64,000 nt of DNA from Tagaea sp. CACIAM 22H2 (GTDB taxonomy: Bacteria; Pseudomonadota; Alphaproteobacteria; CACIAM-22H2), in NCBI GenBank assembly GCA_014444615.1, contig PVXE01000015.1, forward strand, positions 12,124 to 76,123, in the 5' to 3' direction. A program made the position numbers and the translations under genes. Numbering within the stretch: position 1 is the first letter of the stretch; the number at the start of each line of letters is the position of its first letter. The notes beneath the pieces are model-generated. The model was not told where the DNA came from, searched no databases, and was given only the letters and a program-made list of their open reading frames with translations. Positions 21,685-38,490 of this stretch are shown here, piece after piece.

Positions 21685-24600
21685 TTAACGCCCGCCCCAG
21701 GCCAGCGGGAAATTGCCCGAAATGCCGGGCGTGCCCGTCGCGGTCGCCGTCGGGATCGCGGGCGGCGTCAGGTTCAGCAAGCCCGGCAAAATCGTGACCG
21801 GCGCGCCGCCGCCCACAGGCGTCACGGTGATCGACTGCACCGCACCGCCCGAAGTGTTGATCGTGATCGTGGTGCCCGCCGCGAACGTGCCCGCCCCCGC
21901 CGACGGGGTAGGCGTGCTGGATTGCGCGCCGCCGGTCTGCGGCGTGCTACCGGCCGTTTGGGGATTATTGCCTTCGCCGCTGCCTTGTTGCCCCCCGCCC
22001 GTGCTGCCGGCGGGCGACGCGGCCTCGGTTAGGATCGCGATCAGCATCGCCTGCACCGCCGCCGGGCTGACCGGGTTGACGTTCGCCGCGTCGGTCGTGC
22101 CGGTCGTCGACGACGACGGCTGCACGACCGTCGAGGTCAGGATCTGGGTGATGATCTGCGCCAGCGTCTCGGTCGTGACCGTGTTGGTCGTGGTGCCTTC
22201 GGTCGGCGTCGATGGCGGCGGCGCCGAGCTCGAAACCGTCGCGCCGCCGAAGGTGAAGCTGCCACTGGATGCCGTCACCGCCGGCGCGGCTGCCGCGCCC
22301 GAATTGCCGTTGACCGTGCCGTCGAGCGCGCCGCCGGTACCCGTCAACGACAACGACGTGCCGAAATCGTTGCCGCTTTCGGTCAGCGTCATCGTGCCCG
22401 TCGCCGACAAGCTGGTCGAGCCGGCGCTGAAGAAGCTCGCGCCCAATTGCGTGAGGGCGCCGCCCGCCGTCACCGTCAAGGCGCCGCCGACCGTCATATC
22501 GCCCAATGTCAGCGCGCCGGAATTAGTGACCGACGCCGAACCCGCCGTCGCCGTCAGCGACAACGCGCCGCCGAAGGCGTTCGAGGCGTTGGTCAGCGTG
22601 ATGCTGCCGCCCGTCGTCGTGAAGCTCGACGTGCCCGTGACCGTTGCGGCGCCAACTTGGGAGATCGAGCCGCCGGTGACGACGGTCAACCCGTTCCCGG
22701 CCGTGACGCCGCCCAAAGTCAAATTGCCGGGATTGGTGACCGATACCGCACCGGCCGCCGTCGATATCGACAGCGCGCCGCCGAAGGCGTTCGACGCGTT
22801 GGTCAAGATGATGTCGCCGCCGGCCGTGAAGCTCGACGCGCCCGCGACCGTCGCCGCGCCGACCTGGCTGATCGATCCGCCGGTCACGCTGACATTCAGC
22901 GTGCCCGCCGACGAGATCGAGCCGATGGTCATGCCGCCGGACTGCACCCAATCGATATCGCCGGCCGTCGTCGTCAGCGACGTATTGCCGCCGGCGGCGA
23001 CGGTGCCCGTTTGCCCGGCGATGTTGCCCGAAATCGCGTTCAGCGTCAGCGCACCCCCACTATTGATGCTGCCGCTGTCGAGATAGACGGCGTGGTTGTT
23101 GGTGCCGCCACCCGTGCCGCCGGTCGCCGTAATCGATATGCCCGCGACTTGGGTAGCGATCCCGCCGCCCGAACCGACGATGATGCCGTACCGGTTGCTA
23201 TCGCCCGAGGCGCCGCCGGCCGTCGCGGTGATCGAGACGCTGCCGGTGCCGGTCGCGCCGATCGTGCCGAGTTGGCCCACGCCCGACTGGTTCACGCCGA
23301 CTTCCAAGCCACGGCTTTGAATGCCGCTGTCGTTGGCGCCGCCGCCCGTGGCGTTGATCGTCAGATTGCCATCGACCGTCGTGATGCTCGTCGTGCCGCC
23401 GCCGCCGACATGCACGCCCACGCTGGCCAAACCGCCGCCCGCGCCGGTCACGGTGACGGCACCCGTTCCGGTCGCACGGATTGCACCCGTCGCCAGCGCT
23501 ACGCCGATATTCCCGGAACCATTGGCGCCACCCGTCCCCGTCACGGTCAAGACGCCATGTTGGGTCTGCGCATAGGCGCCGCTCGCGTAAAACTCAACGC
23601 CCGCCGCACCGCCGCCGGCGCTATTGCCGCCTTGGCCCTCGATCGTAAGCGTGCCCGTGCCAGATGTGAGCACGCCCGCACCGTTGCGGATCGTCACGCC
23701 GTGGGAGCCGCCAGCCCCGCTACCGCCCGCACCCTTGATGAAGATATCGCCGCCGCCGGCATCGACAAGGGCCGAAGCGCTGTCGATGCTCACGCCGAAA
23801 ACCGCGGTGCTCGATGCGCCGAACGCGCCGCCGCCCGGCGCGTTGCCGTAAAGATTGATGTTGCCGCCCGTGGTCGTGATGCTCGACGTGATCGTCAGAC
23901 CGTCGGCGGCATCGGCGGTGAAACTTCCGCCATGCGTGTTCACGGTATCGAGCGTCATCGTGCCGGATGTCGCGATCGACGCGTTGCCGTAATTGTCGAT
24001 CGAGATCGTGCCGCCGAACGCGTTGTTCAGATTATTCAGCGCCACAGCGCCGGTACCGCCGTCGAAGGTAGCGCCGGCACCGGACCTGACCACGGCGCTG
24101 TTAAGCGCGATACCGTTATTAGAGATCATCCCGATCTGACCGGTCGTCGCTTCGACGGTCGCGGTGCCGACGGCGATGATGCCGGTACCGCCGTTCGCGG
24201 CTTGGCCGTTGAACGTCACATAGACGCCGGCGGCGTTGACGATCGCGGCCGCACCGTCGACCGAGATTCCGTGCGCGGTCGCGCTATTGGCGCCGCCGTA
24301 ACCGTAAAGCTCGATATAGCCGGATTGGGTTTCGATCTGGCTGCCGCCCGCGACGATGATGCCTTGCGCGCCCGCCCCCGTGCCGGCGCCGCCGCGTCCG
24401 CCGAGGACGATGTTGCCCGACGTGGTTTCGATCCGGCCGCCACTGAGCATCACGATGCCATGCTGACCCGTGCCGTTGTCGGTCGAGCCCTTGCCGATGA
24501 TCATGACATTGCCCGATCCGGCCGACAAAATCGCGGAAGCGCCGTCGATGCGCACGCCCCACGCCGTGCCGGCATTGGTCCCGGCATTGTTGTCGCCACC

Positions 24601-27600
24601 CGGCGCGTTGCCCCACACATTGATGTTGCCGCCGTCGGTGTCGATGCCCGCATTGGCGAACCACGCCGTCTCCTCGGCATCGATGAAGAAGGTGGCACCG
24701 CCCGTTCCTGACGATTTGACCAAATTGCCGCCGACCAAGACGTTGCCCGCGGTCGAGGTCAAATTCACGTTCTGCGAAACGCCGCGCGTGAAATTCTGCT
24801 GCCCCGTGATCTGGAGCGATCCGCCTTGGATCGAAACCGTCGCGCCGGTGAATTCGTTTGTCTGGCTGAGGATGATCGTTCCGGTCGAATTGATCGTGAC
24901 GCTGCCGCCATTCGCGTCCTGCACCAGCGCGCCGGTTTGCGTGATCCCGGCGGTGGCGTTCAAGCTGAGCGAGCCGCTGCCCATCGTCGACGCGGCGAGC
25001 GTCATCGACCCCGACGAGGCCAGCGTCACGTTGGCCGTCGTACCGGACTTATCGAGCGCGATCGCGTCCGCGACGATATTCGCGGCCGTCACGTCGCCCT
25101 GCCCCGACAACGTGGCGGTCGTGGCGCCCAGGATCGTCGTGGAAGCCGCACCGCCGGCGTCGATCGTGACGGCCTGGCCGCTGAACTCCATCGTGTTGGA
25201 AACAAACGTCCCCTGCGTCTGGAACGCGAAATGGGAAACGCCCGAGGCGAGGCTCCAAAACTGCGTGTTGTCGACTTGGATCGAGCCGAGCTGCCCGGCC
25301 GAACCGAGCATCAGCGTATCGAACCCGGAAATGCCGCCCAGAATACCGGCGGTGATCGCAATGCCACCGCTCGCGAAGCCACCATTGACGCCGATGCCGA
25401 GCGACGAGTCCACGTTCTCGAACTGGATTGTCCCGCCGCCCGATTGGCGCGACAGCGTCAACGTCGATACGGACGACGCGAGCGAAGTCGCGGTGAAGTG
25501 AAGATCGCCCTGGAACGACGCGCCGCCGATCACCACGGTCGTCGAAGCGCCGTCGTAGCTGTCGCGCAGATCAATACCCGTTCCGGTGCCGATGGGCGTG
25601 AGGCCGGAAAGAAGGATAGATCCCGTGCCCGTTGACGTTACCGACGCACCGGCGATCTCGATCGAATCGCTGTTCGAACCCGCCCCGCCCGTTCCTGTGA
25701 TGGCGACGTCACCGTTCGTCGCGGACACCGTCGCACGCGCGATGCGCACGCCGATATTGGACCCGCCGGTCCCGGTCAAGGCGCCGTAGCCGGTAATGGT
25801 TATGCCACCGCTGCCCGAGACCAAAGCCGTACCGGGCGAATACACGGAGCTAAGAAACGTATCGCCGTTGATATACACGCCGACTTGTTCGGCACCACCA
25901 GCCGACGCGCCGCCCTTGCCCGTGACTTCGATGGCGCCAGTACCGGATGTCTGCACGACGACGCCGTCGATCAAAACGCCGTGACTATAGGTGCCGCCAT
26001 TGCCGCCCGCACCGGCGATCGAAATATCGCCGCCGCCCGCGTCGATGGTGACCGCCGTCGCGCTCGTGCGCTGGAGGTTCACGCCGACATTGAGGCCGGC
26101 GCTTGGCGTAGCGCTCGGCGTGCCGCCGGGCGCGTTGCCCCAGATGCTGATATCGCCGCCGAAGGTTTCGATTCCGGCGTTGATCGTCGCCTTCGTGCCA
26201 GCGACGAGCGAAACATTGCCGCCCTCGGTGACGATCTTGCCGCCGAGCGTCAGCGTGTCCGCCGCCTGGGCGCTGAAATTCAGCATGCCGCCGGCCGTGG
26301 CGCCGATCGCGACCGTCGATGGCGTGCCTTGGATATTGATGTTGCCGTCCGAAATCAGCGACACGTTGCGCGTGCCGGTCGCCGACGTCGTGGTGATCGT
26401 GCCGCCGGCGCTAACGACGATGTCGGCGGCAGCGCCCGTGCCATTAAAAACCAAATTTACGGCGTCACCCGCGAGGGTGATGGCGCCGCTGAGATTGATG
26501 GCATTCCCGCCGGAACCGCCTTCGCCGGAGATGTCGATGGTGCCGCTGCCGGCCGAAAAAACGATTCCGTCCAAGCCCACGCCCGCGGCACCGGCGCCCA
26601 CGCTGGTGCCGCCGACCGTCAACGTGCTGTTGGCGACGCGCCAATCCGCGCCCGGCATCGCCAATATGCCGTATTCGACGACCGATGTGCCGATGATCGA
26701 CGAACCGGCGCCCGAGCCCGCGTCGATCACGCCAAGGCTCCAAACGCCGCGCGAAAAGCCGCTGCCGACCGAACCGCCGTTCAACGTCAGCGTGCCGGAT
26801 CCGGTCTCGATCTCGCTGAAATATGCCGCGAGAATACCGTGCGAACTGGCGCCGCTGCCCGACGTGCCGCTGACGGTGATATTGCCGGTCGTCGTCTGCA
26901 GCGTCGCGGTATTGATCCCCGAATTGCCCTGCATGAACACGCCGCTGCCGTCGTTGCCGAAGCCGCCCGTGCCGTTGATGTTGATATTGCCCGCCCCGGC
27001 CGAGATCGTGACGGCCCCGCCCGCCGCGGTCGTATAGAGATAGATCCCGGCGGGCGCCGTGCCGCTCGTGGCACCCCGGCCGCGCGCGAAGAAATTGCCG
27101 CCATCGGTCGTGATGGTGACGCTGCGCGCCGTGCCGTCGTTGTAGCCCTGGATCGAAATGCCCTGGTCGATGCCGCCGCCGCCGATCGCCGCCTGCGCCG
27201 CGCCCGGCAAGGCATTCGTCAGGCTACCCGTGCCGCCGCCCATGACGATGTAGCCGCCATTGGTATCGATGACGATGTCGCTGTTGGTCGGTTGGATATC
27301 GATATAGCCGGTGGCGCCGCCGCCCGAACGCGCGTTGAAGATCATGTTCATCGAGCCGGCGCCGGTCGCGATCAGGCTCTTGTCGATGACGATATTGCTG
27401 GTCGAAATGAGGTTGAGATTGGCCGACGTCGCGATATTGAAGCTCTGGTTGGCCGTGACGTTGATCGCGTCGGCCAGCACGGTCACGTCGCCGGTAAAGA
27501 CGTTCGCTTGGGACAGGGTGACGATGCCACTATTGCCCTGGATCGTGAAGCTGTCGGCCAGCGCATCTTGAGTGATCGTGCCGGTCTGCGCGAAGCCCAC

Positions 27601-29634: not shown

Positions 29635-29748
29635 CCGCAAAAACACCAAGATTTGTCCGGGTAATCCGCAAATAGTGCGGATCCTCAAGAACAGAAAGTT
29701 TAATAGTAGCGAGGGGTCTTTGCAAAGCGCTCAAATGTGCTCGAGCGC

Positions 29749-29770
29749 AAAAAAACACGCTAAAAGCGTG
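29749..29770 (-). terminator. Short hairpin plus T7 run at the tpsB stop codon
   Basis: The minus strand reads CACGC-TTTTA-GCGTG-TTTTTTT. The tpsB TAG spans the loop/3'-arm junction. A second hairpin, GCGCTC-N10-GAGCGC, follows at 29727-29748. Confidence 0.4.
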
Positions 29771-31433
29771 CCGATACGTCCATCAGAACGCGCCAAGGAT
29801 GCTCACCCTCGGCTTGGCCGGGCGGGCGAGTCAAAGGCTTGGCAAATTCCAGCCCGCCGGAAATCCAGCTATCCGGTTGAACGCGCACGCCCAACCCGGC
29901 CGACGACAAAAATTGCGTCTGCGAGGCGCCACCCGTCCGGCGATTCCACGCCCAGCCCGCGTCGTAAAACACGTAAGGCTGCCACCCGTCGCCGGCCAGA
30001 TCGCCGTAGCGCAGATCGACACCCTGGCCGAACGCATTGCGCCCCGTCAGCTCCGACGGATCGTAGCCGCGCCCGAAGCGCGAACCGCCCAGCGAGAATT
30101 CCTCGCCCGCGAACAAGACCGACGATGTCGCCTGTCCGCTGCCGACCCATTGCAGGCTGAACTTCTCCGGCAGGATTTGGATGCGGCGCAATTCGGCCGT
30201 CCATTTGCTGAAATTCGGGTTGGCGCCGGCGCGCGACAACAGGCTGTTGCCTTCTTCGGTCGAAGCAATTCCCAACCCCCGCGTGTATCCGAGCGACATC
30301 ACCGTCGCCCCTTGGAGGAAGCCGACATGCGTGTAGGTCGCGCGCATGTCGCCCGCGGTGTATTGCTCGTTGGTCTGCAGCGTGGCGCCGACCAGCGTGC
30401 GCGTCGTCGCGAAAAACAACGAGGAATCGAGCGTCAGATTCTCGCGCCGCGAGCGGATCAGCGGATAGGACAAGCGCGGGCCCGCGCGCCACGCCACCGT
30501 GTTGACGCGCAGCGATTTCAGCGTGTGGCCGGGCCAGCCCCAGGAATAGGTCGTATCCCAGCCCAGCGTCAGCCCGTCGCCGCCGATCGGCTGGCTGTAG
30601 CGCAGCGCCGCCTGGCGCATCTCGCGCGTGTCGTTGGGCACCGTGGTCAGCGTCATGCCGATCTGCTCGGTAAGCCCCAACAGACCGCTGTAACTGACAT
30701 CGCCCGACAGCGACCACGGGCCCTGGAATTTCGAGCCGCGATTGCCGAGCGTGACGCCGGCGGAAATCGGCTTCTCGGCGATCTTGACGTTAAGATCGGA
30801 AGCCCCCGGCGTATCGCCGGGGGCGAGCGTGCCCGCCGCGACGACGCCCGACAAATCGCCCGCCAGCAGCAAGCCACGCTCGATCCACTTGACGTTGACC
30901 GGCCGCCCGTCGAAGGCGCGGCGCATATAGGCGGTGATGCGCTCGCGCACCGGCTCGCTGCCGCCGTCGAACAAGATGCGGCCCAGGAAGCCTTCGACGA
31001 TCTGAATGCGGAACGTGCCGTCACCCACACGCTGCGGCGGCACGAATGCGCGCGTCAGCACGTAGCCGTCGGCGCGATAGCGCGCTTCGATCTTCTCCGC
31101 CGCCTCGACGATCGAAGACAACCCTACGGTGTCGCCGATCAGCGCGCCGTAATCCTGCGCCAGCACGTCGGCGGGATAGACCGTGCCGCCTTCGACGACG
31201 ATGCGCGTCACGGGAAAGCGCAGCTCGTCGACCGCGCGGCGTTCGGGTGCGCGCGGCTGGGCGGGAATGGTGAGTTCGAGATCGGCCTGCGGGACCGGTA
31301 TTTCGCGCGGGCCCAGTCGCGGCTCGGCGGAGGGCGGGATGACGACGCCGGAATTCTGACCGAACGCCGACGTCCCCGCCAAAAATGTGGCAAGGCACGC
31401 CCCTACGATCGCCTGCCGAACCGCGTGCGACAT
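29760..31433 (-). CDS. TpsB outer-membrane transporter (ShlB/FhaC/HecB family)
   Basis: MSHAVRQAIVGACLATFLAGTSAFGQ signal peptide, POTRA-like segments (VTRIVVEGGTVYP, FRIQIVEGFLG), a beta-barrel region and a terminal F (DVSARF). ATG 31433 is preferred over 31532, which would leave only 6 bp to the divergent gene. Confidence 0.9.
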   Translation of the reverse strand: MSHAVRQAIVGACLATFLAGTSAFGQNSGVVIPPSAEPRLGPREIPVPQADLELTIPAQPRAPERRAVDELRFPVTRIVVEGGTVYPADVLAQDYGALIGDTVGLSSIVEAAEKIEARYRADGYVLTRAFVPPQRVGDGTFRIQIVEGFLGRILFDGGSEPVRERITAYMRRAFDGRPVNVKWIERGLLLAGDLSGVVAAGTLAPGDTPGASDLNVKIAEKPISAGVTLGNRGSKFQGPWSLSGDVSYSGLLGLTEQIGMTLTTVPNDTREMRQAALRYSQPIGGDGLTLGWDTTYSWGWPGHTLKSLRVNTVAWRAGPRLSYPLIRSRRENLTLDSSLFFATTRTLVGATLQTNEQYTAGDMRATYTHVGFLQGATVMSLGYTRGLGIASTEEGNSLLSRAGANPNFSKWTAELRRIQILPEKFSLQWVGSGQATSSVLFAGEEFSLGGSRFGRGYDPSELTGRNAFGQGVDLRYGDLAGDGWQPYVFYDAGWAWNRRTGGASQTQFLSSAGLGVRVQPDSWISGGLEFAKPLTRPPGQAEGEHPWRVLMDVSARF

Positions 31434-31475
31434 CTTAACGAAGCGTTTATACTGATTCGGAATGGAGGAGAATCC

Positions 31476-31490
31476 CCTTGTTACACAAGG
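31476..31490. promoter_or_regulatory. Palindrome in the tpsB / CHAT-operon divergent region
   Basis: CCTTGT-TAC-ACAAGG, flanked by the direct repeats GGAGGAGAATC and GGAGGAATC. The local sequence is noticeably AT-richer than its surroundings. Confidence 0.3.
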
Positions 31491-31538
31491 AGGAATCAAC
31501 CATCCTCTGATCAGCGAGGCAGATTGGGTCATTCATCG

Positions 31539-32207
31539 ATGCGGCAATTTTTTCGGCTGCTGTCCCTGACAACGGCAATTTTTACGGTTTTGGCATATCC
31601 GGTGCTGGCCCAGCAACAGCAGGTGCCAACCGCACGCCCGGCGGCACCCGCCGCGACCGACGAATTCAAGTTGAACGGATTCCGCAGCGCCAATTTCGGC
31701 ATGACCGCCGACCAAGTGCGCCAAGCGATCCGGCGCGACTTCGCCGCCGCCGCCGACAAGATCGAAACGGTCGAAAACGCGGTCGAGCGGACGACCGTTT
31801 TATCTATTCAGGTCAATGACTTGTTGCCGAATACGGGAACCGGCGTCGTGGCCTATGTCATCGGCTATCGCACCAAGCAGCTGGTTCAAGTGACGGTCAC
31901 TTGGGGTGGTGGAATCAACCCGAATTTCAAACCGGAACAGGCGCTTGGCGCCGCGCGCCAATTGCAGGCCTATTTCGCCGGCCAAGGTTACAAAGCCGAT
32001 ACGGTCGTCACCAACGCCCAGCAGCGCGACGGCTCGATCATCGTTTTCGCGGGCGACGATGCCCAACGCCGGCGCACCCTGCTGGTCTTGGGCAACGTGA
32101 CCGGGCAGGACGGCAAGCCGCCGGAAGGTCCGCCGGTCCTGCAATTGTCGTATATTCGCGATCCTCAGAACCCGGACGTGTTTCAAATCCGCCGGGGCGA
32201 TTTTTAA
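31539..32207 (+). CDS. Secreted hypothetical protein (222 aa)
   Basis: MRQFFRLLSLTTAIFTVLAYPVLA|QQQQ signal peptide. This is the C-terminal part of artefactual track ORF 29799..32207. I recognise no family. Confidence 0.7.
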   Translation: MRQFFRLLSLTTAIFTVLAYPVLAQQQQVPTARPAAPAATDEFKLNGFRSANFGMTADQVRQAIRRDFAAAADKIETVENAVERTTVLSIQVNDLLPNTGTGVVAYVIGYRTKQLVQVTVTWGGGINPNFKPEQALGAARQLQAYFAGQGYKADTVVTNAQQRDGSIIVFAGDDAQRRRTLLVLGNVTGQDGKPPEGPPVLQLSYIRDPQNPDVFQIRRGDF

Positions 32208-32219
32208 GCCGTAGCCCCC

Positions 32220-32738
32220 ATGCACAAGCGAACCTTCAAGAAAGGCCAGCCGATCTTCAAAGAGGGCGATCGCGGCCTGGAAGCCTTCTTGATCGAAACG
32301 GGCAAGGTTCTGATTCTGAAAAAAGGCGCCGCGGCACCGGTGATCGTCGCCGCATTGCCGAACGGCGCGTTGTTCGGCGAGATGGCGATTCTCGACGGCA
32401 GTCCGCGCATGGCGACGGCGGTGGCCGGCGAAGACACGGTCTGCGTCGTCATCAATTCAATGCAGCTGCAACAGAAGCTGATGTCGCTGCCGCCGGATAT
32501 TCTGCGGATCATGACCGCGTTGATGGAATATGTGCGCGCGGTCGTGCCGTTCGATCAGCGATCGAAGGTCGGTCAGGGCCCCGAGCCCACGCAGCGCGAC
32601 CAGCAGGCGCGCATGATGCTGCCCAGCCCCCAAGTGCTGGAAGGATTCGGCGTCACCGATCCGATGTTGAAGGCGCTGCTGCGCATGTTGTGCGACTATA
32701 CGCGCCGGCGCTTGCCGCCCGAATTGCTCAAAACCTGA
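32220..32738 (+). CDS. Stand-alone cyclic-nucleotide-binding domain protein (172 aa)
   Basis: FKEGDRGLEAFLIETGKVLI...GALFGEMAILDGSPRMATAVA shows a beta-roll with a phosphate-binding cassette (FGE...PR-x-A). I see no HTH or other output domain. Confidence 0.8.
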   Translation: MHKRTFKKGQPIFKEGDRGLEAFLIETGKVLILKKGAAAPVIVAALPNGALFGEMAILDGSPRMATAVAGEDTVCVVINSMQLQQKLMSLPPDILRIMTALMEYVRAVVPFDQRSKVGQGPEPTQRDQQARMMLPSPQVLEGFGVTDPMLKALLRMLCDYTRRRLPPELLKT

Positions 32739-32742
32739 AAGG

Positions 32743-35742
32743 TTGCCGACGTTGCGCGTTTCCTTGGCCGTTCTGTCGCTGATGCTGTTGGCGGGCTGCC
32801 AGACCGCCAACACCAATGCGGGCGGCAGCAACGCGCCCAGCGTCGGGCTTTCCAGCGCCAACGAAACCTGCCGCGCGCAAACGCGCAGTTCGGGTGCGCG
32901 CACCGACACGCCGGTCTGGGACGTGCTGTGCGGCGCTTCCGAACGGCCCGTCGGCGCCGTGCACTCGGCGATCGATATGCGCCGGGCGGAGCCTGCGCGC
33001 GCCTTCGCCGATTCGAACGCCTATCGCTCGCTGACCGCGCGCGCCAATTGCCCCGCCCCCGAAACGCTGCGCTTGCCCGATGCGGGCGACATGCTGATCG
33101 CGACTTGCGCGTTGAACGACGGCGGCTGGCCGTGGATCGCCGCCGCTTTGTCGGCCGACGGCAAGCTCGCGGTCGGCGAAGGCACGCCCGGTGCCGCCCC
33201 CGCTTTCGCCGAAGGCATCGCGAACGAGCTGGGCAAGCAAAGCTTCACCGCCAACGACCGGCGCGCCTTGCTGACCGACTTACAGCGCCGCTTGGGTGCC
33301 GAAGCGCTTGCCGCCGGTGCCGCCGCCGGGCGCTATCAGGATTTCGTCGAACTCGCGCGCGTGCAAAACAGCGTGGGCAACCATGCGGGCGCGGAGAAGG
33401 CCTATCGCCAAGCGCTGGATCTGCAAATCCGCGCGATGGGCGCCGAGCACGCGGGCATCGGCACGACGACGACGCTGCTGGCGGTCGAGATTTCCAATCA
33501 AGGCCGCGTCGAGGAAGCCGACGAGTATTTCCGCCGCGCCGAGGCGCTGGTGCTGAAGGCGACCGATCCGGGCGAATATCCGCGCTATCTCACCTATCTG
33601 GGCCTTCACGCCGCCAACCGGCGCGATTGGGGCCGCGCGCTGACCATCGCGCGCGATGCGATCGGGCGCCGGCGCGCGCTGATCGAACAGGCAGGCGGGG
33701 GCATTCCCGCAGCACTCGACACTGCGGGCGATGCCGCGTCGATCTTCGGGTCGACCGTGTTCCTGCAAGCCGAACTCGCGCACGCGCTGATGTTCGCTTC
33801 CGCCATGGCGCAGCGAAACGGCGATCTTGCCTCGGCCGAAACCTATGCGATCGAAGCGCGCCGCATCGTCGAGCAGACGCCGGGCTTGCCTGCCTGGTGG
33901 CGCCCGCAAGCCTGGGGGCAGCTCGGCACCGTGCTTGCCCTGCGCGGCGATTTCCGCGGCGCCGAGCGCTTACTTGCCAACGCGGCCGCCGAGCGCACGC
34001 GGATTTTCGGCGCGACTTGGCCCACCGCCCAAGCGCTGATGGATCTGGGCCGCGCGCAATCCGACGAGGGCCGCTACGCCGAAGCGATCGGCAATTACCG
34101 TCAGGCCTTCGCCATTGCCGCGAACGAAACGCCGGCGCGCGCGCTGACCTTCGAACAGATCCAGCCTTTCCTGGCCGCGGCCGAAGCGCGGGCGCGCGCC
34201 ACCGCCGAGGAACGCGCCACGCTTTACGCCGAAATGTTCGCCGCCGTGCAGATGCTGCGCGACGGGACGCGCGGCCAAGCGGTTACGCGCATGACCGAGC
34301 GCATCGCCGAAGGCGGCGGACGCGCGGGCGAACTCGCGCGGCTGATCGGCGACGCGGCCCAGCGCCGCGACCGTTTGCAGATCGAATTGGCGGTCGAACC
34401 CGGCCGCCAGCGCGACGTGCGGCGCGAAACCAAAGCGCGCGAGGAATTGACGCAGATCCGCGCGACGATCGCGTCGCTCGAATCCGACATGGAACGCGAA
34501 GCGCCAGGCTATGCGCGCTTGGCCAGCGCCAAGCCGGTGGAACCGGGCCGCCTTGCCCAGGCGTTGCGCCCCGGCGAAACGCTGATCAGCTATGTGTCCG
34601 GCCCGGAAGGCGCCTACGCGTTCCTGGTCACCTCGGCCGGCTTGCGCGCCGCGCGTCTCGACACCGACGAAGCCAAACTCGCCGAAGACGTCGCGTCGTT
34701 GCGCGAAGCCTTCAAGGTCACGGACCGCAGCGTGAAGCCGTTCGACCTCGCGCTGTCGCATCGCCTTTATCGTACGCTGCTGTCGCCGTTCGAGGCGGAG
34801 CTGGCCAAGACCGACCAGTTATTCGTCGTCGGCACGGGCCCGCTCGCCAGCTTGCCGTTCGCGGTGCTGACGACCGCGCCTTCGGCACCCAACGATTACG
34901 CGCGGGCACCTTGGCTCGCGCGGCGCATGGCGATTTCCTCGCCGCCCACCGTGCGCGCGTTCCTGGATATGCGCGCGCTCGCCGCCAAGCCCTCCGCACC
35001 CCAGCCGCTGCTCGCCGTCGCCAATCCGGTTTTCGCGGGCGCAGGCGACGGGCTCGGCAAGCTTGCCGATGTTTGCCGCAGCCAAGGTTCCGTGCCCAAC
35101 GCGATGATCCGCGGTCTTGCACCCTTGCCCGAAACCGCCGACGAGGTGCGCCGCGTGGCGACCAGCCTGCGCGCGGGTCCCGACGCGCTGCTGCTGGGGC
35201 CGGACGCCAATGCGGGCAATCTGCGCGCGCGCAATCTGGCCGACTACCGCGTGCTCTATTTCGCCACGCATGGCTTGCTGCCGGGCGAGTTGCGCTGCCA
35301 GGGCCAGCCCGGTTTGGCGCTGACCCCGCCGGCGGCCGAAGCGGCCGACCCCGCCGATGACGGCCTGCTCGAAGCCGCCGAAATCGCCGCGCTGCGGCTC
35401 GACGCCGATCTGGTCGTGCTGTCGGCGTGCAATACGGCCGCGTCGGGCGACCGCTTGGGCGGGGAATCGCTCTCCGGCCTCGCCGAGGCCTTTTTCGCGG
35501 CCGGGGCGCGCGGGCTTCTGGTCACGCATTGGCAAGTGCCCAGCCTCCAAACCGTGACGCTGACGACCGGCATGTTCGACCGGCTGGGCGGCGATTTGAA
35601 ACGCGGCATCGCCCCGGCCCTGCAGGCCGCCCAAATGCGCCTCGCCGACGATCCCGCCACCGCGCACCCCTATTTCTGGGGCGCTTTCGTCCTGCAAGGC
35701 GACGGCGCTTCGCGGGATGCCAAAACCGCCCAAGCACGCTAA
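32743..35742 (+). CDS. Exported TPR-repeat CHAT-domain (caspase-like) lipoprotein
   Basis: Lipobox LLAGC (Cys codon at 32797-32799). The central region is TPR-like (YRQALDLQ..., YFRRAEAL..., NYRQAFAI...). The C-terminal CHAT domain has YFATHG (His codon at 35269-35271) and VLSACNTA (Cys codon at 35428-35430). Start is TTG 32743, or TTG 32752. Confidence 0.85.
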   Translation: MPTLRVSLAVLSLMLLAGCQTANTNAGGSNAPSVGLSSANETCRAQTRSSGARTDTPVWDVLCGASERPVGAVHSAIDMRRAEPARAFADSNAYRSLTARANCPAPETLRLPDAGDMLIATCALNDGGWPWIAAALSADGKLAVGEGTPGAAPAFAEGIANELGKQSFTANDRRALLTDLQRRLGAEALAAGAAAGRYQDFVELARVQNSVGNHAGAEKAYRQALDLQIRAMGAEHAGIGTTTTLLAVEISNQGRVEEADEYFRRAEALVLKATDPGEYPRYLTYLGLHAANRRDWGRALTIARDAIGRRRALIEQAGGGIPAALDTAGDAASIFGSTVFLQAELAHALMFASAMAQRNGDLASAETYAIEARRIVEQTPGLPAWWRPQAWGQLGTVLALRGDFRGAERLLANAAAERTRIFGATWPTAQALMDLGRAQSDEGRYAEAIGNYRQAFAIAANETPARALTFEQIQPFLAAAEARARATAEERATLYAEMFAAVQMLRDGTRGQAVTRMTERIAEGGGRAGELARLIGDAAQRRDRLQIELAVEPGRQRDVRRETKAREELTQIRATIASLESDMEREAPGYARLASAKPVEPGRLAQALRPGETLISYVSGPEGAYAFLVTSAGLRAARLDTDEAKLAEDVASLREAFKVTDRSVKPFDLALSHRLYRTLLSPFEAELAKTDQLFVVGTGPLASLPFAVLTTAPSAPNDYARAPWLARRMAISSPPTVRAFLDMRALAAKPSAPQPLLAVANPVFAGAGDGLGKLADVCRSQGSVPNAMIRGLAPLPETADEVRRVATSLRAGPDALLLGPDANAGNLRARNLADYRVLYFATHGLLPGELRCQGQPGLALTPPAAEAADPADDGLLEAAEIAALRLDADLVVLSACNTAASGDRLGGESLSGLAEAFFAAGARGLLVTHWQVPSLQTVTLTTGMFDRLGGDLKRGIAPALQAAQMRLADDPATAHPYFWGAFVLQGDGASRDAKTAQAR

Positions 35743-35751
35743 GATACGGCC

Positions 35752-36456
35752 ATGCGTTTCGGACCCGCCCTGGCCCTCGCCGCCGCTTTGTTCCTGGCCG
35801 CCCCGCTTGCGGGCGCCAATGAATTGGTCGTGCTGGATGCCAAGGGCGTGGATCTGACGCCCGGCGCCAAGCTCGACGGCAAAGCGAAGCTGACCCTCGC
35901 GGCGGGTGCCCGCCTGACGCTGGTCGCCGCCGACGGCCGCACGATCAAGCTCAAAGGCCCTTACGACGACAGCCCCGCCCCCGGCCAAGCCGAGCAGGCG
36001 AATATGGGCGACGCGCTCAAAAACCTGATGAGCCAGCGCGGTTCCGGCACGGCCCAGCTCGGTGTGGTGCGCGCGGGCGGCGAAGGGGCCGATCTGCCCG
36101 AGCCTTGGGTGCTCGACGTCGCGCGCTCGGGCCCGCGCTGCTTGCCCGCCAATGTGGCGCCGGTGTTGTGGGGCCCGCGTTTCGGCGAAGCGACCGAACT
36201 CAAGATCGAGCCCGCCGACCGGTCCTGGCGCGCCAAGGGCAGCTGGCCGATCGATCAGGATCGTCTGGCGCTGCCGCCCAGCATTCCCATTTCCGACGGC
36301 ACGACCTATCAGGTCGATGTCGGCGGCAACCCGGCAGCCATCGTCGTGTTCCGCATTCCCGCCGCCCTGGCCGATCCGGTCGCGCAAGCCGCCTGGATGC
36401 TCGAAAAGGGCTGCGAGGATCAGGTACGCGCGCTGGCGCGCGTGGCGTCCCGCTAA
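35752..36456 (+). CDS. Secreted hypothetical protein (234 aa), weakly FecR-like
   Basis: Signal peptide MRFGPALALAAALFLAAPLAGA|NE. The segment VLDAKGVDLTPGAKLDGKAKLTLAAGARLTLVAADGRTIKL resembles FecR-domain beta strands. This is a weak impression only. Confidence 0.65.
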   Translation: MRFGPALALAAALFLAAPLAGANELVVLDAKGVDLTPGAKLDGKAKLTLAAGARLTLVAADGRTIKLKGPYDDSPAPGQAEQANMGDALKNLMSQRGSGTAQLGVVRAGGEGADLPEPWVLDVARSGPRCLPANVAPVLWGPRFGEATELKIEPADRSWRAKGSWPIDQDRLALPPSIPISDGTTYQVDVGGNPAAIVVFRIPAALADPVAQAAWMLEKGCEDQVRALARVASR

Positions 36457-36489
36457 CCGCACTCTCCCTGGACCGGAAATAAGAGCGAC

Positions 36490-38490
36490 ATGGCGCTGGG
36501 TGAAAACGCGAAGCGTGTCGTCGCCTCGCTGCTGATCGCGGCATTCGCGACGATCGCAACCTACGGGGTCTTCCAGCTTTTCCCGTTCCTCGCGACGGCC
36601 GAACGCTGGACGATCGATTTCCGTATTTCGAACCTGTCGCCGCCCGAGCCGCAGCACCCGGACATCGTGCTGGCCGCGATCACGGAAGAATCGCTGGCGC
36701 AATTCCCCTATCGCTCGCCCGTCGACCGCGAATTCCTGGCCAAGACGCTGCGCATCCTGGAGGCCAAGGGCGCCAAAGCGCTGCTGATCGACGTGCTCTT
36801 CGATCAGGAGACGGAGCCCGAGAAGGACGACATGCTGCGCGAGACCCTCGCGGCGCTGAAAATCCCCTTCGCGATCAGCTATTCGGACTCGCCGCTCTAC
36901 GTGACCGAGGAGCAGCTCGAATATCTCAACGATTTCGTGAAGCCGGAATGGCGCGGGCTCGCGGATATCGAACCCGATATCCGCGACGGCATCATCCGCT
37001 TCGTTCCGCCCGCGCGCGATTTGAAGGAAGGCATCAACGTTCCCAACGTCGCCGCGCGCGTCGCCGAACGCTTGGGCGTCACCATTCCGCGCGATCAACG
37101 CCGCATCGCCTGGCGCGGCGAGCCCGATATGGAAACGCCGTCGTTCCGCTCCTTCCCCAGCCATGCGGCGGCGGTGCTGCCCGACGCCTGGTTCAAGGAC
37201 AAGATCGTGCTGGTGGGTGCCGATCTGTCGCTGACCGACCGCTATCGCACGCCGTTCTCCATCGGCCGCGATCGCGGCGATAACCGCATGGCGGGGGTGA
37301 TCATCCAGGCGCATATCCTGGCGCAAATGCTGGAAGGCCGCGTCTCGGCCGAAGACCGGTTGTTCTGGCCGCTGGTGATCACCTTGTCGGTCCTCGCCTT
37401 GATCGGCGCCGGCCTTGGCAATACCGGCGTGCCGATCTGGGCCCGTCTTGTCGGCGGTGCCGGCGCCGTCGTCGCGTTGTGGGCCGTGGGCTGGACGCTG
37501 TTTATCGGCAATTATCCGCTCGCCGATTGGGTCGAAGCGTGGATCGGCGGCAAGTCGATCATCATTCCGCTGACCGAGCCAATCGTGGCGCTGGGCCTCG
37601 CCATGTGGCTCAACGACGCGTGGTCGGGGCGCGCGGAACGCCAGCAGAAGAAATTCGTCGAAGGCGTGTTCAGCAAATACGTGTCGGGCGAATTGCTGAA
37701 GGAAATCGTCAAGGACCCGAGCAAGCTCGAACTCACCGCCAGCCGGCGGCCCATGTCGCTGCTTTTCACCGACGTCGCGGGTTTCACCACGCTGTCGGAG
37801 AAGATCACGCCCCAGCACCTCGCCGATCTGCTCAACCGCTATCTCGACGGCGCGTGCAAGGAGCTGTGGAAATACGGCGGCACGGTCAACCAGTTCACCG
37901 GCGACGCGATCTACGCGATGTATAACGCGCCGCGCGAGCAGCCCGACCATCCGCGGATGGCGCTGCTGTCCGCGCTCGACATCGACGCGTTCTCCGAACG
38001 CTTCCGCGCCGAGGAACGCGCCAAGGGTGTGGATTTCGGCGTGACGCGCATCGGCGTGCACACGGCCGAGGCGAACGTGGGCAACTTCGGTTCGACCGAG
38101 CGTTTCGAATTCAAGGCGCTGGGCGACGCGGTCAACACCGCCTCGCGCCTGGAAGGCCTCAACAAGTATTTCGGCACGCGCATCCTGGTCACGCAGCAGA
38201 CCAAGGATTTCTGTTCCGACATTCCGTTCCGCAAAGTCGGCGGCGTGATCGTGAAGGGCAAGACCGAGCCCATTCACGTGTACGAGCCGCTCAGCGCCGA
38301 ACGCGCCAACGACGCGCAGACGCAAAGCTACAACGCCGCCTATGCGTTGATGCGCGACAAAAGCCCCGAGGCGCTCGCCGCGTTCGAGAAGCATTGCGCC
38401 GAATTCCCCGAAGACAGCCTCGCGCAATACCATGTCGAACGCCTGCGCGAAGGCGAGAACGGCGACGTCTTCGCGATGGCGGAGAAGTAA
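36490..38490 (+). CDS. CHASE2 sensor-domain class III adenylate/guanylate cyclase
   Basis: N-terminal TM, then an extracytoplasmic CHASE2 domain (ITEESLAQFPYRSPVDREFLAKTL...LIDVLFDQ), then 3 TM segments, then a cyclase domain (LLFTDVAGFTTLSE, GGTVNQFTGDAIYAMY, GDAVNTASRLEG). Confidence 0.9.
   Translation: MALGENAKRVVASLLIAAFATIATYGVFQLFPFLATAERWTIDFRISNLSPPEPQHPDIVLAAITEESLAQFPYRSPVDREFLAKTLRILEAKGAKALLIDVLFDQETEPEKDDMLRETLAALKIPFAISYSDSPLYVTEEQLEYLNDFVKPEWRGLADIEPDIRDGIIRFVPPARDLKEGINVPNVAARVAERLGVTIPRDQRRIAWRGEPDMETPSFRSFPSHAAAVLPDAWFKDKIVLVGADLSLTDRYRTPFSIGRDRGDNRMAGVIIQAHILAQMLEGRVSAEDRLFWPLVITLSVLALIGAGLGNTGVPIWARLVGGAGAVVALWAVGWTLFIGNYPLADWVEAWIGGKSIIIPLTEPIVALGLAMWLNDAWSGRAERQQKKFVEGVFSKYVSGELLKEIVKDPSKLELTASRRPMSLLFTDVAGFTTLSEKITPQHLADLLNRYLDGACKELWKYGGTVNQFTGDAIYAMYNAPREQPDHPRMALLSALDIDAFSERFRAEERAKGVDFGVTRIGVHTAEANVGNFGSTERFEFKALGDAVNTASRLEGLNKYFGTRILVTQQTKDFCSDIPFRKVGGVIVKGKTEPIHVYEPLSAERANDAQTQSYNAAYALMRDKSPEALAAFEKHCAEFPEDSLAQYHVERLREGENGDVFAMAEK

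What the first reader, a model, noticed from the sequence alone, without database searches (positions are those of the whole stretch)
21685..38490. Candidate envelope signalling island: two-partner secretion + exported TPR-CHAT protease + CHASE2 cyclase + cNMP receptor
Seven genes form two tightly packed divergent units that share a 105-bp AT-rich control region. On the minus strand are tpsB (31433 to 29760) and a giant tpsA (29634 to 21685). On the plus strand are a secreted 222-aa protein, a stand-alone cNMP-binding protein, a TPR-CHAT lipoprotein, a secreted 234-aa protein and a CHASE2-class III cyclase. The internal gaps on the plus strand are only 12, 4, 9 and 33 nt. Six of the seven products carry an export signal or membrane anchor. 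The caspase-like His/Cys dyad of the CHAT domain is intact. The operon encodes both a second-messenger synthase and a matching receptor. From memory, CHASE2 sensors, CHAT proteins, FecR-like proteins and ShlB/FhaC-type transporters recur as neighbours in proteobacterial and cyanobacterial genomes, and I know of no assigned function. The ligand of CHASE2 is, to my knowledge, still unknown. Working hypothesis: an extracytoplasmic proteolytic event (the CHAT protease acting on or with the secreted proteins or TpsA) is read by the CHASE2 ectodomain, converted to a cyclic nucleotide, and bound by the 172-aa receptor.
Basis: partly seen in the sequence, partly recalled or inferred. Interest (0 to 1): 0.8.

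Follow-up and report, generated by a model that had tools for sequence, protein, structure and literature searches.

The report
Conserved envelope protease–cyclase signalling module
Seven neighbouring genes form one copy of a widespread but unstudied bacterial envelope module that links a secretion pair and an exported caspase-like protease to a membrane enzyme making a cyclic-nucleotide signal, which gives a concrete way to test what the CHASE2 sensor domain detects.

Summary
All seven genes, their spacing, domains, catalytic residues and export signals are as described, in a Tagaea-like alphaproteobacterium.

Comparative genomics shows the cluster is not a chance neighbourhood. In 18 further distinct loci from Alpha- and Betaproteobacteria, an exported TPR-CHAT protease, a 230-260 aa periplasmic protein (the "p234" family, no Pfam model, about 1,700 representative clusters) and a CHASE2 class III cyclase sit in the same order. 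A TpsB/ShlB barrel is present in 13 of the 18, a TpsA-type exoprotein in 8, and a cNMP-binding gene in 13. One relative packs TpsA-CHAT-p234-cyclase-TpsB into a single operon with 4-nt overlaps.

- p234 is not FecR-like. FecR-TPR-barrel partners belong to other CHASE2 cyclases, such as S. meliloti NsrA-CyaK.
- TpsA is missing in the nearest non-Tagaea relatives, although TpsB is kept.
- The cyclase carries Gln/Lys instead of the usual Lys/Thr specificity pair, so its product is uncertain.

A sister module replaces CHAT with an exported caspase (C14) protein. An invariant G-x-x-R motif lies in the only disordered loop of p234 and is a candidate cleavage site. The proteolysis-to-CHASE2 mechanism is plausible but remains inferred.

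The parts
21685..29634 (-). tpsA: 2649-aa Gly/Thr/Ala/Ser-rich exoprotein. It has an extended signal peptide, an N-terminal TPS domain (with an NPAGI motif) and DUF5649 repeats. No toxin domain was detected.
   Evidence: Pfam TPS 5.9e-32 and DUF5649 1.8e-37; NCBIfam adhes_NPXG; sequence read. It is 82% identical to the Tagaea MAG, against 90-96% for the other genes. It is absent in L087, L088 and L092.
29754..29772 (-). Terminator-like hairpin plus T-run at the tpsB stop codon. It lies at the tpsB-proximal edge of the 125-nt, 46% GC gap between tpsB and tpsA.
   Evidence: The total count of such sites in the region does not exceed shuffles, so this is weak evidence.
29760..31433 (-). tpsB: Omp85-family outer-membrane transporter with a signal peptide, POTRA_2, a ShlB barrel and an RGY loop-6 motif (FGRGYD).
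   Evidence: Pfam; sequence. It is orthologous at 58-62% in L087/L088, which lack TpsA.
31434..31538 (.). 105-bp divergent intergenic region at 46.7% GC. It contains the palindrome CCTTGT-TAC-ACAAGG at 31476-31490.
   Evidence: The palindrome is conserved in the Tagaea MAG L004 and only partly in L087. No sigma-70 consensus was found there.
31539..32207 (+). p222: secreted 222-aa protein of an unnamed family with an alpha+beta duplicated fold.
   Evidence: No Pfam or NCBIfam hit. It has 78 homologues, all 'hypothetical'. AF2 pLDDT is 84 with no PDB fold match. Distant members still sit in the module (L083, L084, L087, L088, L092).
32220..32738 (+). Stand-alone cytoplasmic cNMP-binding protein of 172 aa. 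The phosphate-binding cassette FGEMAILDGSPRMATAVA is intact, and the C-terminal tail DPMLKAL..MLCDYTRRRLPP is conserved.
   Evidence: Pfam PF00027 1e-17. The best PDB matches are PKG/PKA CNB domains. It is present in every examined locus whose cyclase has the Q/K pair (L004, L086, L087, L088, L092).
32743..35742 (+). TPR-CHAT lipoprotein of 999 aa. It has a lipobox LLAG|C, a Cys-containing N-terminal domain, TPR repeats, and a C-terminal CHAT caspase-fold domain with H843/C896.
   Evidence: Pfam. The dyad is invariant in 15 homologues, all with signal peptides, some with lipoboxes.
35752..36456 (+). p234: periplasmic 234-aa protein with two beta-sandwich domains plus helices. C130 and C221 are invariant, as are G104 and R107 in the only disordered loop (residues 101-109).
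   Evidence: No Pfam hit. Alignment A2. AF2 pLDDT 86.8. No PDB fold match at E<1e-3. The family has 1,694 representative clusters. It sits next to CHASE2 cyclases in 18 of 50 sampled loci.
36490..38490 (+). CHASE2 class III nucleotide cyclase of 666 aa. Order: TM, periplasmic CHASE2, three hydrophobic segments, cytoplasmic cyclase. Catalytic residues are intact, but the specificity pair is Q468/K542.
   Evidence: Pfam; hydropathy; residue census. The closest solved cyclase domain is P. aeruginosa CyaB, and no solved CHASE2 was found by sequence.

Best explanation
The seven genes are one copy of a conserved envelope-spanning signalling module.

Shown:
- The core is an exported TPR-CHAT cysteine protease, a small periplasmic protein (p234) and an inner-membrane CHASE2 class III cyclase, encoded in that order.
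- A TpsB-type outer-membrane barrel nearly always accompanies the core. A TpsA exoprotein and a cNMP-binding protein often do.

Inferred mechanism:
1. TpsB exports TpsA where it is present. TpsB may also serve as the outer-membrane end of the relay.
2. The TPR-CHAT protease, tethered to a membrane by its lipid anchor, monitors a surface or periplasmic event such as TpsA secretion or engagement, or a bound ligand.
3. The protease acts on p234. The candidate site is the invariant G-x-x-R in p234's one disordered loop.
4. p234 is the partner of the CHASE2 ectodomain. Its state relieves or imposes CHASE2 inhibition of the cyclase.
5. The cyclic nucleotide produced is bound by the co-encoded 172-aa CNB protein. 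In other lineages this protein is replaced by CNB-gated MscS channels, a SulP transporter or a GGDEF enzyme.

The nucleotide is probably cAMP, but this is uncertain because the specificity pair is Gln/Lys.
For: Domains, catalytic residues and export signals are intact.

Synteny:
- CHAT-p234-cyclase occurs in 18 further distinct loci, including Phenylobacterium, Sphingomonas, Sphingorhabdus, Rhizomicrobium, Niveispirillum, Paramagnetospirillum and a Burkholderiaceae MAG.
- L090 has TPS-CHAT-p234-cyclase-ShlB as one operon with 4-nt overlaps.
- L091 has ShlB-TPS-CHAT-p234-cyclase followed by four CNB genes.
- TpsB stays orthologous (58-62%) where TpsA is absent, so it belongs to the module.

Protease and p234:
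- A sister module has an exported Peptidase_C14-FGE protein in CHAT's place, again with a p234 homologue next to the cyclase (L009, L014, L015).
- p234's G104/R107 are invariant in both module types and lie in the only low-confidence loop.
- p234 is the common denominator. It occurs with the cyclase alone (L008, L010, L011), with protease plus cyclase, and with TPS plus CHAT without a cyclase (L089).

Precedent:
- S. meliloti CHASE2 cyclases need NsrA, which is encoded directly upstream of cyaK and is a FecR-TPR-barrel protein (PMC7529298, PMC13001267).
- Deleting CHASE2 makes CyaD1 constitutive (PMC5498481, figure 2 legend).

Co-regulation: Caulobacter genes annotated CHASE2 receptor / hypothetical / TPR / hemopexin-binding (TpsA-like), CCNA_00635-00639, respond together to sRNA AbnZ (PMC11724286, Table 1).
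Against: - There is no experimental evidence for this module. The direction of information flow and the protease substrate are inferred.
- Parts occur apart: p234 plus cyclase without a protease (L008, L010, L011), and TPS-CHAT-p234 without a cyclase (L089).
- TpsA is absent in the closest non-Tagaea relatives. A terminator-like hairpin separates tpsB from tpsA.
- No protein-complex prediction could be run.
- The Caulobacter genes were matched by annotation only, not by sequence.
- The CNB protein has no effector domain, so the output is unknown.
- The locus sample was chosen by similarity to this cyclase. It is not an unbiased census of CHASE2 proteins.
Confidence: 0.5

Rival explanations
1. 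Adhesin-control (Lap-like) reading. The main job of the TPR-CHAT protease is to process or release the TpsA exoprotein in the periplasm or at the surface. p234 and the CHASE2 cyclase regulate or report that proteolysis, for example by sequestering the protease. The module would then control surface attachment rather than sense an external ligand.
For: - TpsA-type genes lie directly upstream of CHAT, on the same strand, in L007, L013, L033, L082, L089, L090 and L091.
- L089 has TPS-CHAT-p234 with no cyclase.
- CHAT is a lipoprotein.
- Precedent: the periplasmic cysteine protease LapG cleaves the TpsA-type adhesin CdrA under control of the inner-membrane c-di-GMP receptor LapD (PMC4694147, PMC5231407).
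Against: - L084, L086, L087, L088 and L092 keep TpsB, CHAT, p234 and the cyclase without any TpsA in the flanks.
- The C14-type sister module has neither TpsA nor TpsB.
- The inner-membrane partner is a messenger synthase, not a receptor, which fits outside-in flow better.
Confidence: 0.25
2. p234 and p222 are ligand-binding co-receptors for the CHASE2 domain. TPR-CHAT acts mainly as a scaffold or quality-control protease, and proteolysis is not the signal.
For: - p234 plus cyclase pairs exist without any nearby protease (L008, L010, L011).
- Other CHASE2 proteins have non-protease secreted partners: LysM-FecR in Burkholderia (PMC5192318), FecR-TPR-barrel NsrA, and DUF928 (PMC5587647).
Against: - The CHAT dyad is invariant.
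- CHAT is replaced by another caspase-fold enzyme (C14), not by a non-enzyme.
- Both points argue that catalysis matters.
Confidence: 0.15
3. Two unrelated units are adjacent by chance: an ordinary tpsBA adhesin or haemolysin secretion pair, and a separate sensor operon.
For: - The units are divergently oriented.
- TpsA is absent in the nearest relatives.
- There is a hairpin after tpsB.
- TpsA diverges faster, at 82% against 90-96%.
Against: - TpsB accompanies the core in 13 of 18 loci, in several orientations.
- TpsB is inside the same overlapping operon in L090 and is retained without TpsA.
Confidence: 0.06
4. An anti-phage or conflict system of the Pycsar or CHAT-protease kind: a cyclase makes a nucleotide alarm that activates a CNB-containing effector.
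For: PADLOC gives PycC-type hits for the cyclase domain (9.3e-23) and PycTIR-type hits for the CNB domain. The specificity residues are unusual.
Against: - The hits cover only generic cyclase and CNB domains.
- The CNB protein has no TIR, TM or other killing domain.
- Six of the seven products are exported or membrane-anchored.
- The sensor domain is periplasmic.
- Flanking genes are housekeeping and vary between lineages apart from shared synteny among close relatives; an integrase was seen only in L091.
Confidence: 0.03

Closest known systems
Sinorhizobium meliloti NsrA - CyaK/CyaD1/CyaD2 - Clr pathway
   Same: - Both use an inner-membrane CHASE2 class III cyclase whose activation needs an envelope partner encoded next to it.
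- That partner carries TPR repeats and an outer-membrane barrel.
- The signal is proteinaceous and extracellular.
- A cNMP receptor reads the output (PMC7529298, PMC13001267).
   Different: - The partner there is one 1190-aa FecR-TPR-barrel protein. It has no BLAST similarity to p234 or TpsB.
- That system has no protease, no p234 and no TPS pair.
- Its receptor is a Crp-type transcription factor, not a stand-alone CNB domain.
- Its cyclases have the usual specificity residues, whereas the window has Q/K.
LapD-LapG control of LapA/CdrA adhesins (Pseudomonas)
   Same: A periplasmic cysteine protease, a giant surface protein (CdrA is a TpsA exported by a TpsB) and an inner-membrane second-messenger protein form one functional unit (PMC4694147, PMC5231407).
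   Different: - LapG has a transglutaminase-like fold, not CHAT.
- LapD binds c-di-GMP (inside-out signalling), whereas this protein synthesises a cNMP.
- No homology was found or tested beyond the logic.
Two-partner (type Vb) secretion systems such as FhaC/FHA and ShlB/ShlA
   Same: TpsB has POTRA_2, a ShlB barrel and an RGY motif. TpsA has an N-terminal TPS domain and a repetitive passenger.
   Different: - TpsB here is conserved with a signalling operon even where no TpsA is encoded nearby.
- No toxin or known adhesin end-domain was detected.
TPR-CHAT protease Csx29 of type III-E CRISPR 'Craspase' (recalled from memory, not tested)
   Same: Both have a TPR array fused to a CHAT caspase-fold protease. 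In Csx29 this acts as a partner-activated, site-specific protease.
   Different: - Csx29 is cytoplasmic and RNA-guided.
- No sequence match to any solved CHAT protein was found. Only the TPR region matched PDB entries.
- The protein here is an exported lipoprotein.
Burkholderia 'BiofilmReg' operon / P. aeruginosa PA4035-4036 type (LysM-FecR protein plus CHASE2 histidine kinase)
   Same: A secreted partner protein is encoded immediately upstream of a CHASE2 sensor (PMC5192318).
   Different: The output is a histidine kinase. The partner is LysM-FecR. There is no protease or TPS pair.

Membership tests
Two-partner secretion (type Vb) | TpsB with POTRA domain(s) and an Omp85/ShlB barrel carrying the loop-6 RGY motif | tested here: met
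   POTRA_2 2.7e-18, ShlB 4.7e-25; FGRGYD in the sequence
Two-partner secretion (type Vb) | TpsA substrate with an N-terminal TPS domain, encoded next to TpsB | tested here: met
   TPS 5.9e-32 at residues 50-304 and adhes_NPXG, 125 nt downstream of tpsB. However, it is absent in relatives L087, L088 and L092.
Two-partner secretion (type Vb) | TpsB-dependent secretion of TpsA | not testable with these tools
   Needs experiment
CHAT / clan CD cysteine proteases | CHAT domain with a conserved His-Cys catalytic dyad | tested here: met
   PF12770 1.4e-55. H843 (YFATHG) and C896 (LSACNT) are invariant in 15 homologues.
CHAT / clan CD cysteine proteases | Proteolytic activity and substrate | not testable with these tools
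   The G-x-x-R loop of p234 is only a candidate site.
CHASE2 sensor proteins | CHASE2 domain between an N-terminal TM segment and further TM segments, followed by a cytoplasmic output domain | tested here: met
   PF05226 1.6e-31 at residues 26-306. Hydrophobic segments at about 9-35 and 290-376.
Class III nucleotide cyclases | Two metal-binding Asp residues plus transition-state Asn and Arg | tested here: met
   D428, D472, N549 and R553 are conserved in 190 of 191 aligned sequences.
Class III adenylate cyclases (cAMP-forming) | Substrate-specifying Lys plus Asp/Thr pair | tested here: not met
   The window and 21 close homologues have Q468/K542, against K/T in 154 of 191. The product is therefore undetermined.
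Cyclic-nucleotide-binding (CNB) proteins | CNB beta-barrel with a phosphate-binding cassette (G-E ... R-x-A) | tested here: met
   PF00027 1e-17. FGEMA...PRMATAVA aligns to PKG/PKA cassettes. G53, E54, R63 and A65 are invariant.
FecR-domain periplasmic sensors (PF04773), for the 234-aa protein | Match to the FecR domain by sequence or fold | tested here: not met
   No Pfam hit at E<=10. No BLAST match to NsrA. No PDB fold match at E<1e-3.
DUF928 (PF06051), for the 234-aa protein | Profile similarity to DUF928 | tested here: not met
   hhalign probability 0.3% against the DUF928 protein that occupies the same place in L083.
NsrA-CyaK-Clr type pathway | FecR-TPR-barrel partner and a Crp-type cNMP-dependent transcription factor | tested here: not met
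   The partners here are TPR-CHAT, p234 and TpsB. The CNB protein has no HTH. Only the CHASE2 cyclase is shared.
Pycsar anti-phage systems | Cytoplasmic pyrimidine cyclase plus a CNB-fused killing effector (TIR or TM) | tested here: not met
   Only generic cyclase and CNB domain hits. No effector domain. The sensor is periplasmic.

The most novel reading that the evidence does not exclude
Regulated periplasmic proteolysis by a caspase-fold enzyme is the physiological input of CHASE2 domains in this clade. TPR-CHAT (or an exported C14 caspase in sister modules) cuts p234 at its invariant G-x-x-R loop, and the cleaved or released p234 is the actual 'ligand' that switches the CHASE2 cyclase. In addition, in the Tagaea clade the Gln/Lys specificity pair and the co-inherited stand-alone CNB protein with a conserved tail would mark a private, non-canonical cyclic-nucleotide channel.
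Probability: 0.2. Interest if true: 0.85.

Novelty: new variant of a known kind. Interest (0 to 1): 0.66.

Why it matters
CHASE2 was defined in 2003. The papers retrieved here still describe its ligand as unknown. The only genetics comes from S. meliloti, where an outer-membrane partner and a protein signal are needed.

This locus and its relatives show that CHASE2 cyclases typically come with dedicated exported partner proteins. One large clade pairs CHASE2 with a caspase-like protease, a family of about 1,700 unnamed periplasmic proteins and a type Vb secretion pair. That turns 'what does CHASE2 sense?' into concrete binding and cleavage experiments.

It would also give a first physiological role to exported CHAT proteases, and to TpsB barrels that lack a TpsA. 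Probable counterparts exist in tractable organisms such as Caulobacter crescentus and Paramagnetospirillum.

Tried and rejected
- **FecR-like identity of p234.** Rejected.
- **DUF928 identity of p234.** Rejected by hhalign, although DUF928 fills the same slot in L083.
- **Fold assignment of p234 and p222 against the PDB.** Both models are confident, but no match reached E<1e-3.
- **Homology of TpsB or p234 to NsrA.** None found.
- **Defence-system reading.** PADLOC gives only generic domain hits.
- **Promoter and terminator scan.** No sigma-70 consensus in the divergent gap, and terminator-like sites are no more frequent than in shuffles.
- **Footprinting of the divergent region.** Conservation extends only to the 95%-identical Tagaea MAG.
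- **Literature searches for CHAT+CHASE2, DUF928 or TPS combinations.** No paper describing the module was found. Garnerone 2018 (PMC5952392) is not held.
- **Further families recurring around the sampled CHASE2-cyclase loci** (DUF3307, molybdopterin oxidoreductase, NAD-binding dehydrogenase, a small TPR protein, DUF2779, MFS). Most are ordinary synteny rather than module parts; the small TPR protein belongs to a different, TPR-partner type of CHASE2-cyclase locus.

Full report
**1.

The ORF list and translations reproduce all seven genes at the stated coordinates. Pfam gives the following:

| Coordinates | Strand | Pfam result |
|---|---|---|
| 21685-29634 | - | TPS + DUF5649 (TpsA) |
| 29760-31433 | - | POTRA_2 + ShlB (TpsB) |
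| 32220-32738 | + | a lone cNMP_binding domain |
| 32743-35742 | + | TPR + CHAT |
| 36490-38490 | + | CHASE2 + Guanylate_cyc |

The 222-aa and 234-aa proteins match nothing in Pfam or NCBIfam, even at E<=10.

The plus-strand gaps are 12, 4, 9 and 33 nt. The divergent gap is 105 bp at 46.7% GC in a 65.9% GC window.

Signal peptides were read by eye. TpsA, TpsB, p222 and p234 each have one. CHAT has a lipobox (LLAG|C). The cyclase has one N-terminal and three later hydrophobic segments around CHASE2.

The flanking genes are unrelated: a beta-CASP RNase, an ArsR/MarR-type regulator and an MFS transporter.

The best genome match is a Tagaea sp. MAG (Rhodospirillales). Six of the seven proteins are 90-96% identical to it, and TpsA is 82% identical.

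**2. The cluster is a conserved module**

I collected 80 genome loci around relatives of the cyclase, plus loci around relatives of p222, p234 and the cyclase and two plasmid records. I clustered their ORFs, named the clusters with Pfam, and re-searched them with profiles built from the clusters.

TPR-CHAT, p234 and the CHASE2 cyclase occur together, in that order, in 18 further distinct loci: L002, 003, 004, 005, 006, 007, 013, 029, 033, 082, 084, 086, 087, 088, 090, 091, 092 and 093. These include Phenylobacterium, Sphingomonas, Sphingorhabdus, Rhizomicrobium, Niveispirillum, Paramagnetospirillum and a Burkholderiaceae MAG.

Within the DNA held for these 18 loci:
- A ShlB-type barrel is present in 13.
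- A TPS-domain or TpsA-like repeat protein (DUF5649, MBG_2 or YDG repeats) is present in 8.
- A cNMP-binding gene is present in 13.

Two loci are especially telling:
- L090 encodes TPS-CHAT-p234-cyclase-ShlB on one strand with 4-nt overlaps at four junctions.
- L091 (Paramagnetospirillum magnetotacticum) encodes ShlB-TPS-CHAT-p234-cyclase followed by four CNB genes, one of them fused to PAS-GGDEF.

In the 50 sampled loci whose match covers the CHASE2 part, the counts were as follows:

| Neighbour | Loci (of 50) |
|---|---|
| p234 | 18 |
| FecR domain | 16 |
| CHAT | 11 |
| cNMP-binding | 10 |
| ShlB | 8 |
| Peptidase_C14 | 4 |
| At least one of p234, FecR, CHAT or C14 | 36 |

The sample was chosen by similarity to this cyclase, so these are not unbiased frequencies.

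**3. What each part adds**

*TPR-CHAT.* The His843/Cys896 dyad is invariant in 15 homologues. All are exported, some as lipoproteins and some with ordinary signal peptides.

*p234.*
- The family is large. A profile search of 1.84 billion representatives finds 1,694 at E<=1e-3 and 1,107 at E<=1e-10. Nearly all of the 150 best hits listed are stand-alone proteins of 230-260 aa. Every source name I saw is 'hypothetical', apart from one evident mis-annotation.
- Its AlphaFold model is confident (pLDDT 86.8) and shows two beta-sandwich domains plus helices. C130 and C221 are invariant. No PDB fold match reaches E<1e-3.
- The only disordered stretch, residues 101-109, holds two of the family's invariant residues, G104 and R107 ('GVVR'). 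The motif is kept in the sister module too.

*Sister module.* In L009, L014 and L015 the position beside the cyclase is taken by a Peptidase_C14 (caspase) + FGE-sulfatase protein, with a p234 homologue on the other side of the cyclase. The L015 protein has a clear signal peptide. Two different caspase-fold enzymes in the same genomic role argue that catalysis matters.

*p234 as the common denominator.* It occurs with the cyclase alone (L008, L010, L011), with protease plus cyclase, and with TPS plus CHAT but no cyclase (L089).

*p222.* This is a narrower family of 78 homologues. Even its distant members sit in the module. Its model is confident and has no known fold match.

**4. The TPS pair**

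TpsB has the loop-6 RGY motif. TpsA has a regular TPS domain and a Gly/Thr/Ala/Ser-rich passenger with no recognised end domain.

In L087, L088 and L092 (cyclase 70-74% identical) the layout is the same as in the window: TpsB divergent from p222-CNB-CHAT-p234-cyclase. There is no TpsA in those loci. TpsB is followed directly by ABC-transporter genes.

TpsB identity in L087 and L088 (58-62%) tracks the other components. TpsB is therefore a module member in its own right. The giant TpsA is an accessory in this lineage, although TpsA genes are integral in L090, L091 and others.

A hairpin plus T-run sits at the tpsB stop codon. Such sites are no more frequent here than in shuffled sequence.

**5. 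The cyclase and its reader**

The metal-binding Asp residues and the Asn and Arg are intact. The two positions that set substrate choice are Gln468 and Lys542. Across 191 aligned CHASE2 cyclases the pairs are:

| Pair | Sequences |
|---|---|
| Lys/Thr | 154 |
| Gln/Lys (window and close relatives, >=52% identity) | 22 |
| Glu/Gly (guanylate-like) | 2 |

From memory, mycobacterial Rv0386 has a Gln at the Lys position and shows mixed AC/GC activity. I did not check this here. The product therefore cannot be assumed to be cAMP.

Every examined locus with a Gln/Lys cyclase (L004, L086, L087, L088, L092) also encodes the same small CNB protein. This protein has an intact phosphate-binding cassette and a conserved tail, DPMLKAL..MLCDYTRRRLPP.

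Lys/Thr or Gln/Thr loci carry other CNB proteins, or none:
- MscS-CNB channels (L005-7, L013; L006 is Gln/Thr).
- A different small CNB protein (L082).

A SulP-STAS-CNB transporter follows the Gln/Lys cyclase in L093. A CNB-PAS-GGDEF gene lies near the cyclase in L091, whose specificity pair was not checked.

The 'synthase plus local receptor' logic is thus well supported. The downstream target of the 172-aa protein is unknown.

**6. Comparison with what is known**

*S. meliloti NsrA-CyaK/CyaD-Clr.* This is the only CHASE2 cyclase pathway with genetics that I found.
- CyaK, CyaD1 and CyaD2 need the outer-membrane protein NsrA to respond to a proteinaceous signal (uL2), and Clr reads the cAMP (PMC7529298, PMC13001267).
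- The gene directly upstream of cyaK on pSymB encodes an 1190-aa FecR + TPR + C-terminal barrel protein. This matches the published description of NsrA, whose barrel spans residues 600-1200.
- Similar FecR-TPR proteins flank 16 other sampled cyclases, including Firmicutes versions.
- A CyaD1 lacking CHASE2 makes cAMP constitutively (PMC5498481), so CHASE2 is inhibitory.
- NsrA shows no sequence similarity to p234 or TpsB.

The window therefore works like the NsrA system, with a TPR-bearing envelope partner, an outer-membrane barrel and a CHASE2 cyclase. It is not a member of it.

*LapD-LapG-CdrA.* This second analogy involves a periplasmic cysteine protease that cleaves a TpsA-type adhesin under control of an inner-membrane second-messenger protein (PMC4694147, PMC5231407). 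It motivates the main rival reading, in which CHAT processes TpsA.

*Other links.*
- Caspase-CHASE2 fusion proteins have been noted in cyanobacteria (PMC2853523) and in EACC2-caspase conflict-system proteins (PMC8195603).
- CHASE2/DUF928 neighbours have been noted in Nostoc (PMC5587647).
- LysM-FecR + CHASE2 kinase operons have been noted in Burkholderia (PMC5192318).
- No paper describing the CHAT-p234-CHASE2-TPS module turned up.

*Caulobacter crescentus.* One incidental data point is worth recording. CCNA_00635 (CHASE2 receptor), 00636 (hypothetical), 00637 (TPR protein) and 00638/00639 (hemopexin-binding, that is HxuA/TpsA-like) all fall 2.3-3.4-fold together on pulse expression of the sRNA AbnZ (PMC11724286). 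By annotation and order this looks like the same module in a model organism. I could not verify it by sequence.

**7. Mechanism and verdict**

Shown:
- A conserved, co-inherited gene set with intact catalytic residues.
- Export of all parts except the CNB protein.
- Interchangeable caspase-fold proteases and interchangeable CNB readers.

Inferred:
- TPR-CHAT responds to a surface or periplasmic event, possibly linked to TpsA or TpsB.
- It acts on p234, probably at the G-x-x-R loop.
- p234 sets the state of the inhibitory CHASE2 domain.
- The resulting nucleotide is read by the CNB protein.

Estimated probabilities:

| Reading | Probability |
|---|---|
| Outside-in proteolytic relay | about 0.5 |
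| Lap-like adhesin-control | about 0.25 |
| Co-receptor, non-proteolytic | about 0.15 |
| Chance adjacency or a defence system | unlikely |

Corrections are needed on FecR, on TpsA and on the nucleotide product.

It is a new variant of a known kind, namely CHASE2 receptor cyclases with envelope partners. It offers a realistic route to the long-open question of what CHASE2 senses.

Noticed in passing
window 36490-38490 (residues 468 and 542 of the cyclase): The substrate-specificity pair is Gln/Lys in the window and 21 close homologues. It is Lys/Thr in 154 of 191 CHASE2 cyclases. Rarer variants are Gln/Thr, Gln/Ile, Glu/Gly and Arg/Thr. The Gln/Lys clade always co-occurs with the small CNB protein that has the CDYTRRRLPP tail.
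   Followed up: partly
window 31476-31490: A perfect palindrome, CCTTGT-TAC-ACAAGG, lies in the 105-bp divergent intergenic region. It is conserved in the Tagaea MAG (L004) and only partly in L087. It is a possible regulator site.
   Followed up: partly
window 29754-29772 (minus strand): A terminator-like hairpin plus T-run sits exactly at the tpsB stop codon, ahead of a 125-nt, 46% GC gap before tpsA. This hints that tpsA may have its own promoter.
   Followed up: no
L081:5249-8821 (S. meliloti pSymB, upstream of cyaK): The protein fitting NsrA is FecR + TPR + a C-terminal barrel, and it overlaps cyaK by 1 nt. Similar FecR-TPR proteins flank 16 sampled CHASE2 cyclases, including shorter versions in Paenibacillus and Cohnella (L027, L028, L034, L061).
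   Followed up: partly
L009, L014, L015 (also L008, L010, L011): A sister module: an exported Peptidase_C14 + FGE-sulfatase protein, then the CHASE2 cyclase, then a p234 homologue. It occurs in Stappia, Minwuia and other Alphaproteobacteria. Some loci have only the cyclase plus p234.
   Followed up: partly
L005, L006, L007, L013 (downstream of the cyclase); L093:6402-8657; L091:12807-17283: cNMP-binding domains fused to MscS-type channels, a SulP-STAS transporter and a PAS-GGDEF enzyme lie next to the module. This suggests ion or solute flux and c-di-GMP as outputs in other lineages.
   Followed up: partly
L089:1379-10702: TPS (1845 aa), TPR-CHAT and p234 occur together without any CHASE2 cyclase or ShlB in the 10-kb flanks. 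The protease/p234 pair can therefore work apart from the cyclase.
   Followed up: no
L083:1892-2647: A DUF928 protein occupies the p234 slot in a ShlB / DUF928 / TPR-CHAT / CHASE2-cyclase / TPS / p222 cluster. There is no detectable profile similarity between DUF928 and p234.
   Followed up: partly
L084:2026-2754, L086:4438-5175, L088:12852-13679, L092:10291-10998: A SapC-family gene (PF07277) recurs beside the module in four relatives. It is not present in the window.
   Followed up: no
Caulobacter crescentus CCNA_00635-00639 (literature only): Genes annotated CHASE2 receptor, hypothetical, TPR protein and two hemopexin-binding (TpsA-like) proteins are repressed together by the sRNA AbnZ, which also targets TamA (PMC11724286). 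CC_0600 also drops under iron limitation (PMC3751524). Homology to the window was not checked by sequence.
   Followed up: partly
L019, L023, L031, L032, L037, L046: Another partner type: TPR-rich proteins of about 960-1720 aa beside CHASE2 cyclases in Gallionellaceae, Sideroxydans, Flavobacteriales and others, placed upstream or downstream of the cyclase. Some loci also have a small TPR protein of about 240 aa between the two.
   Followed up: no
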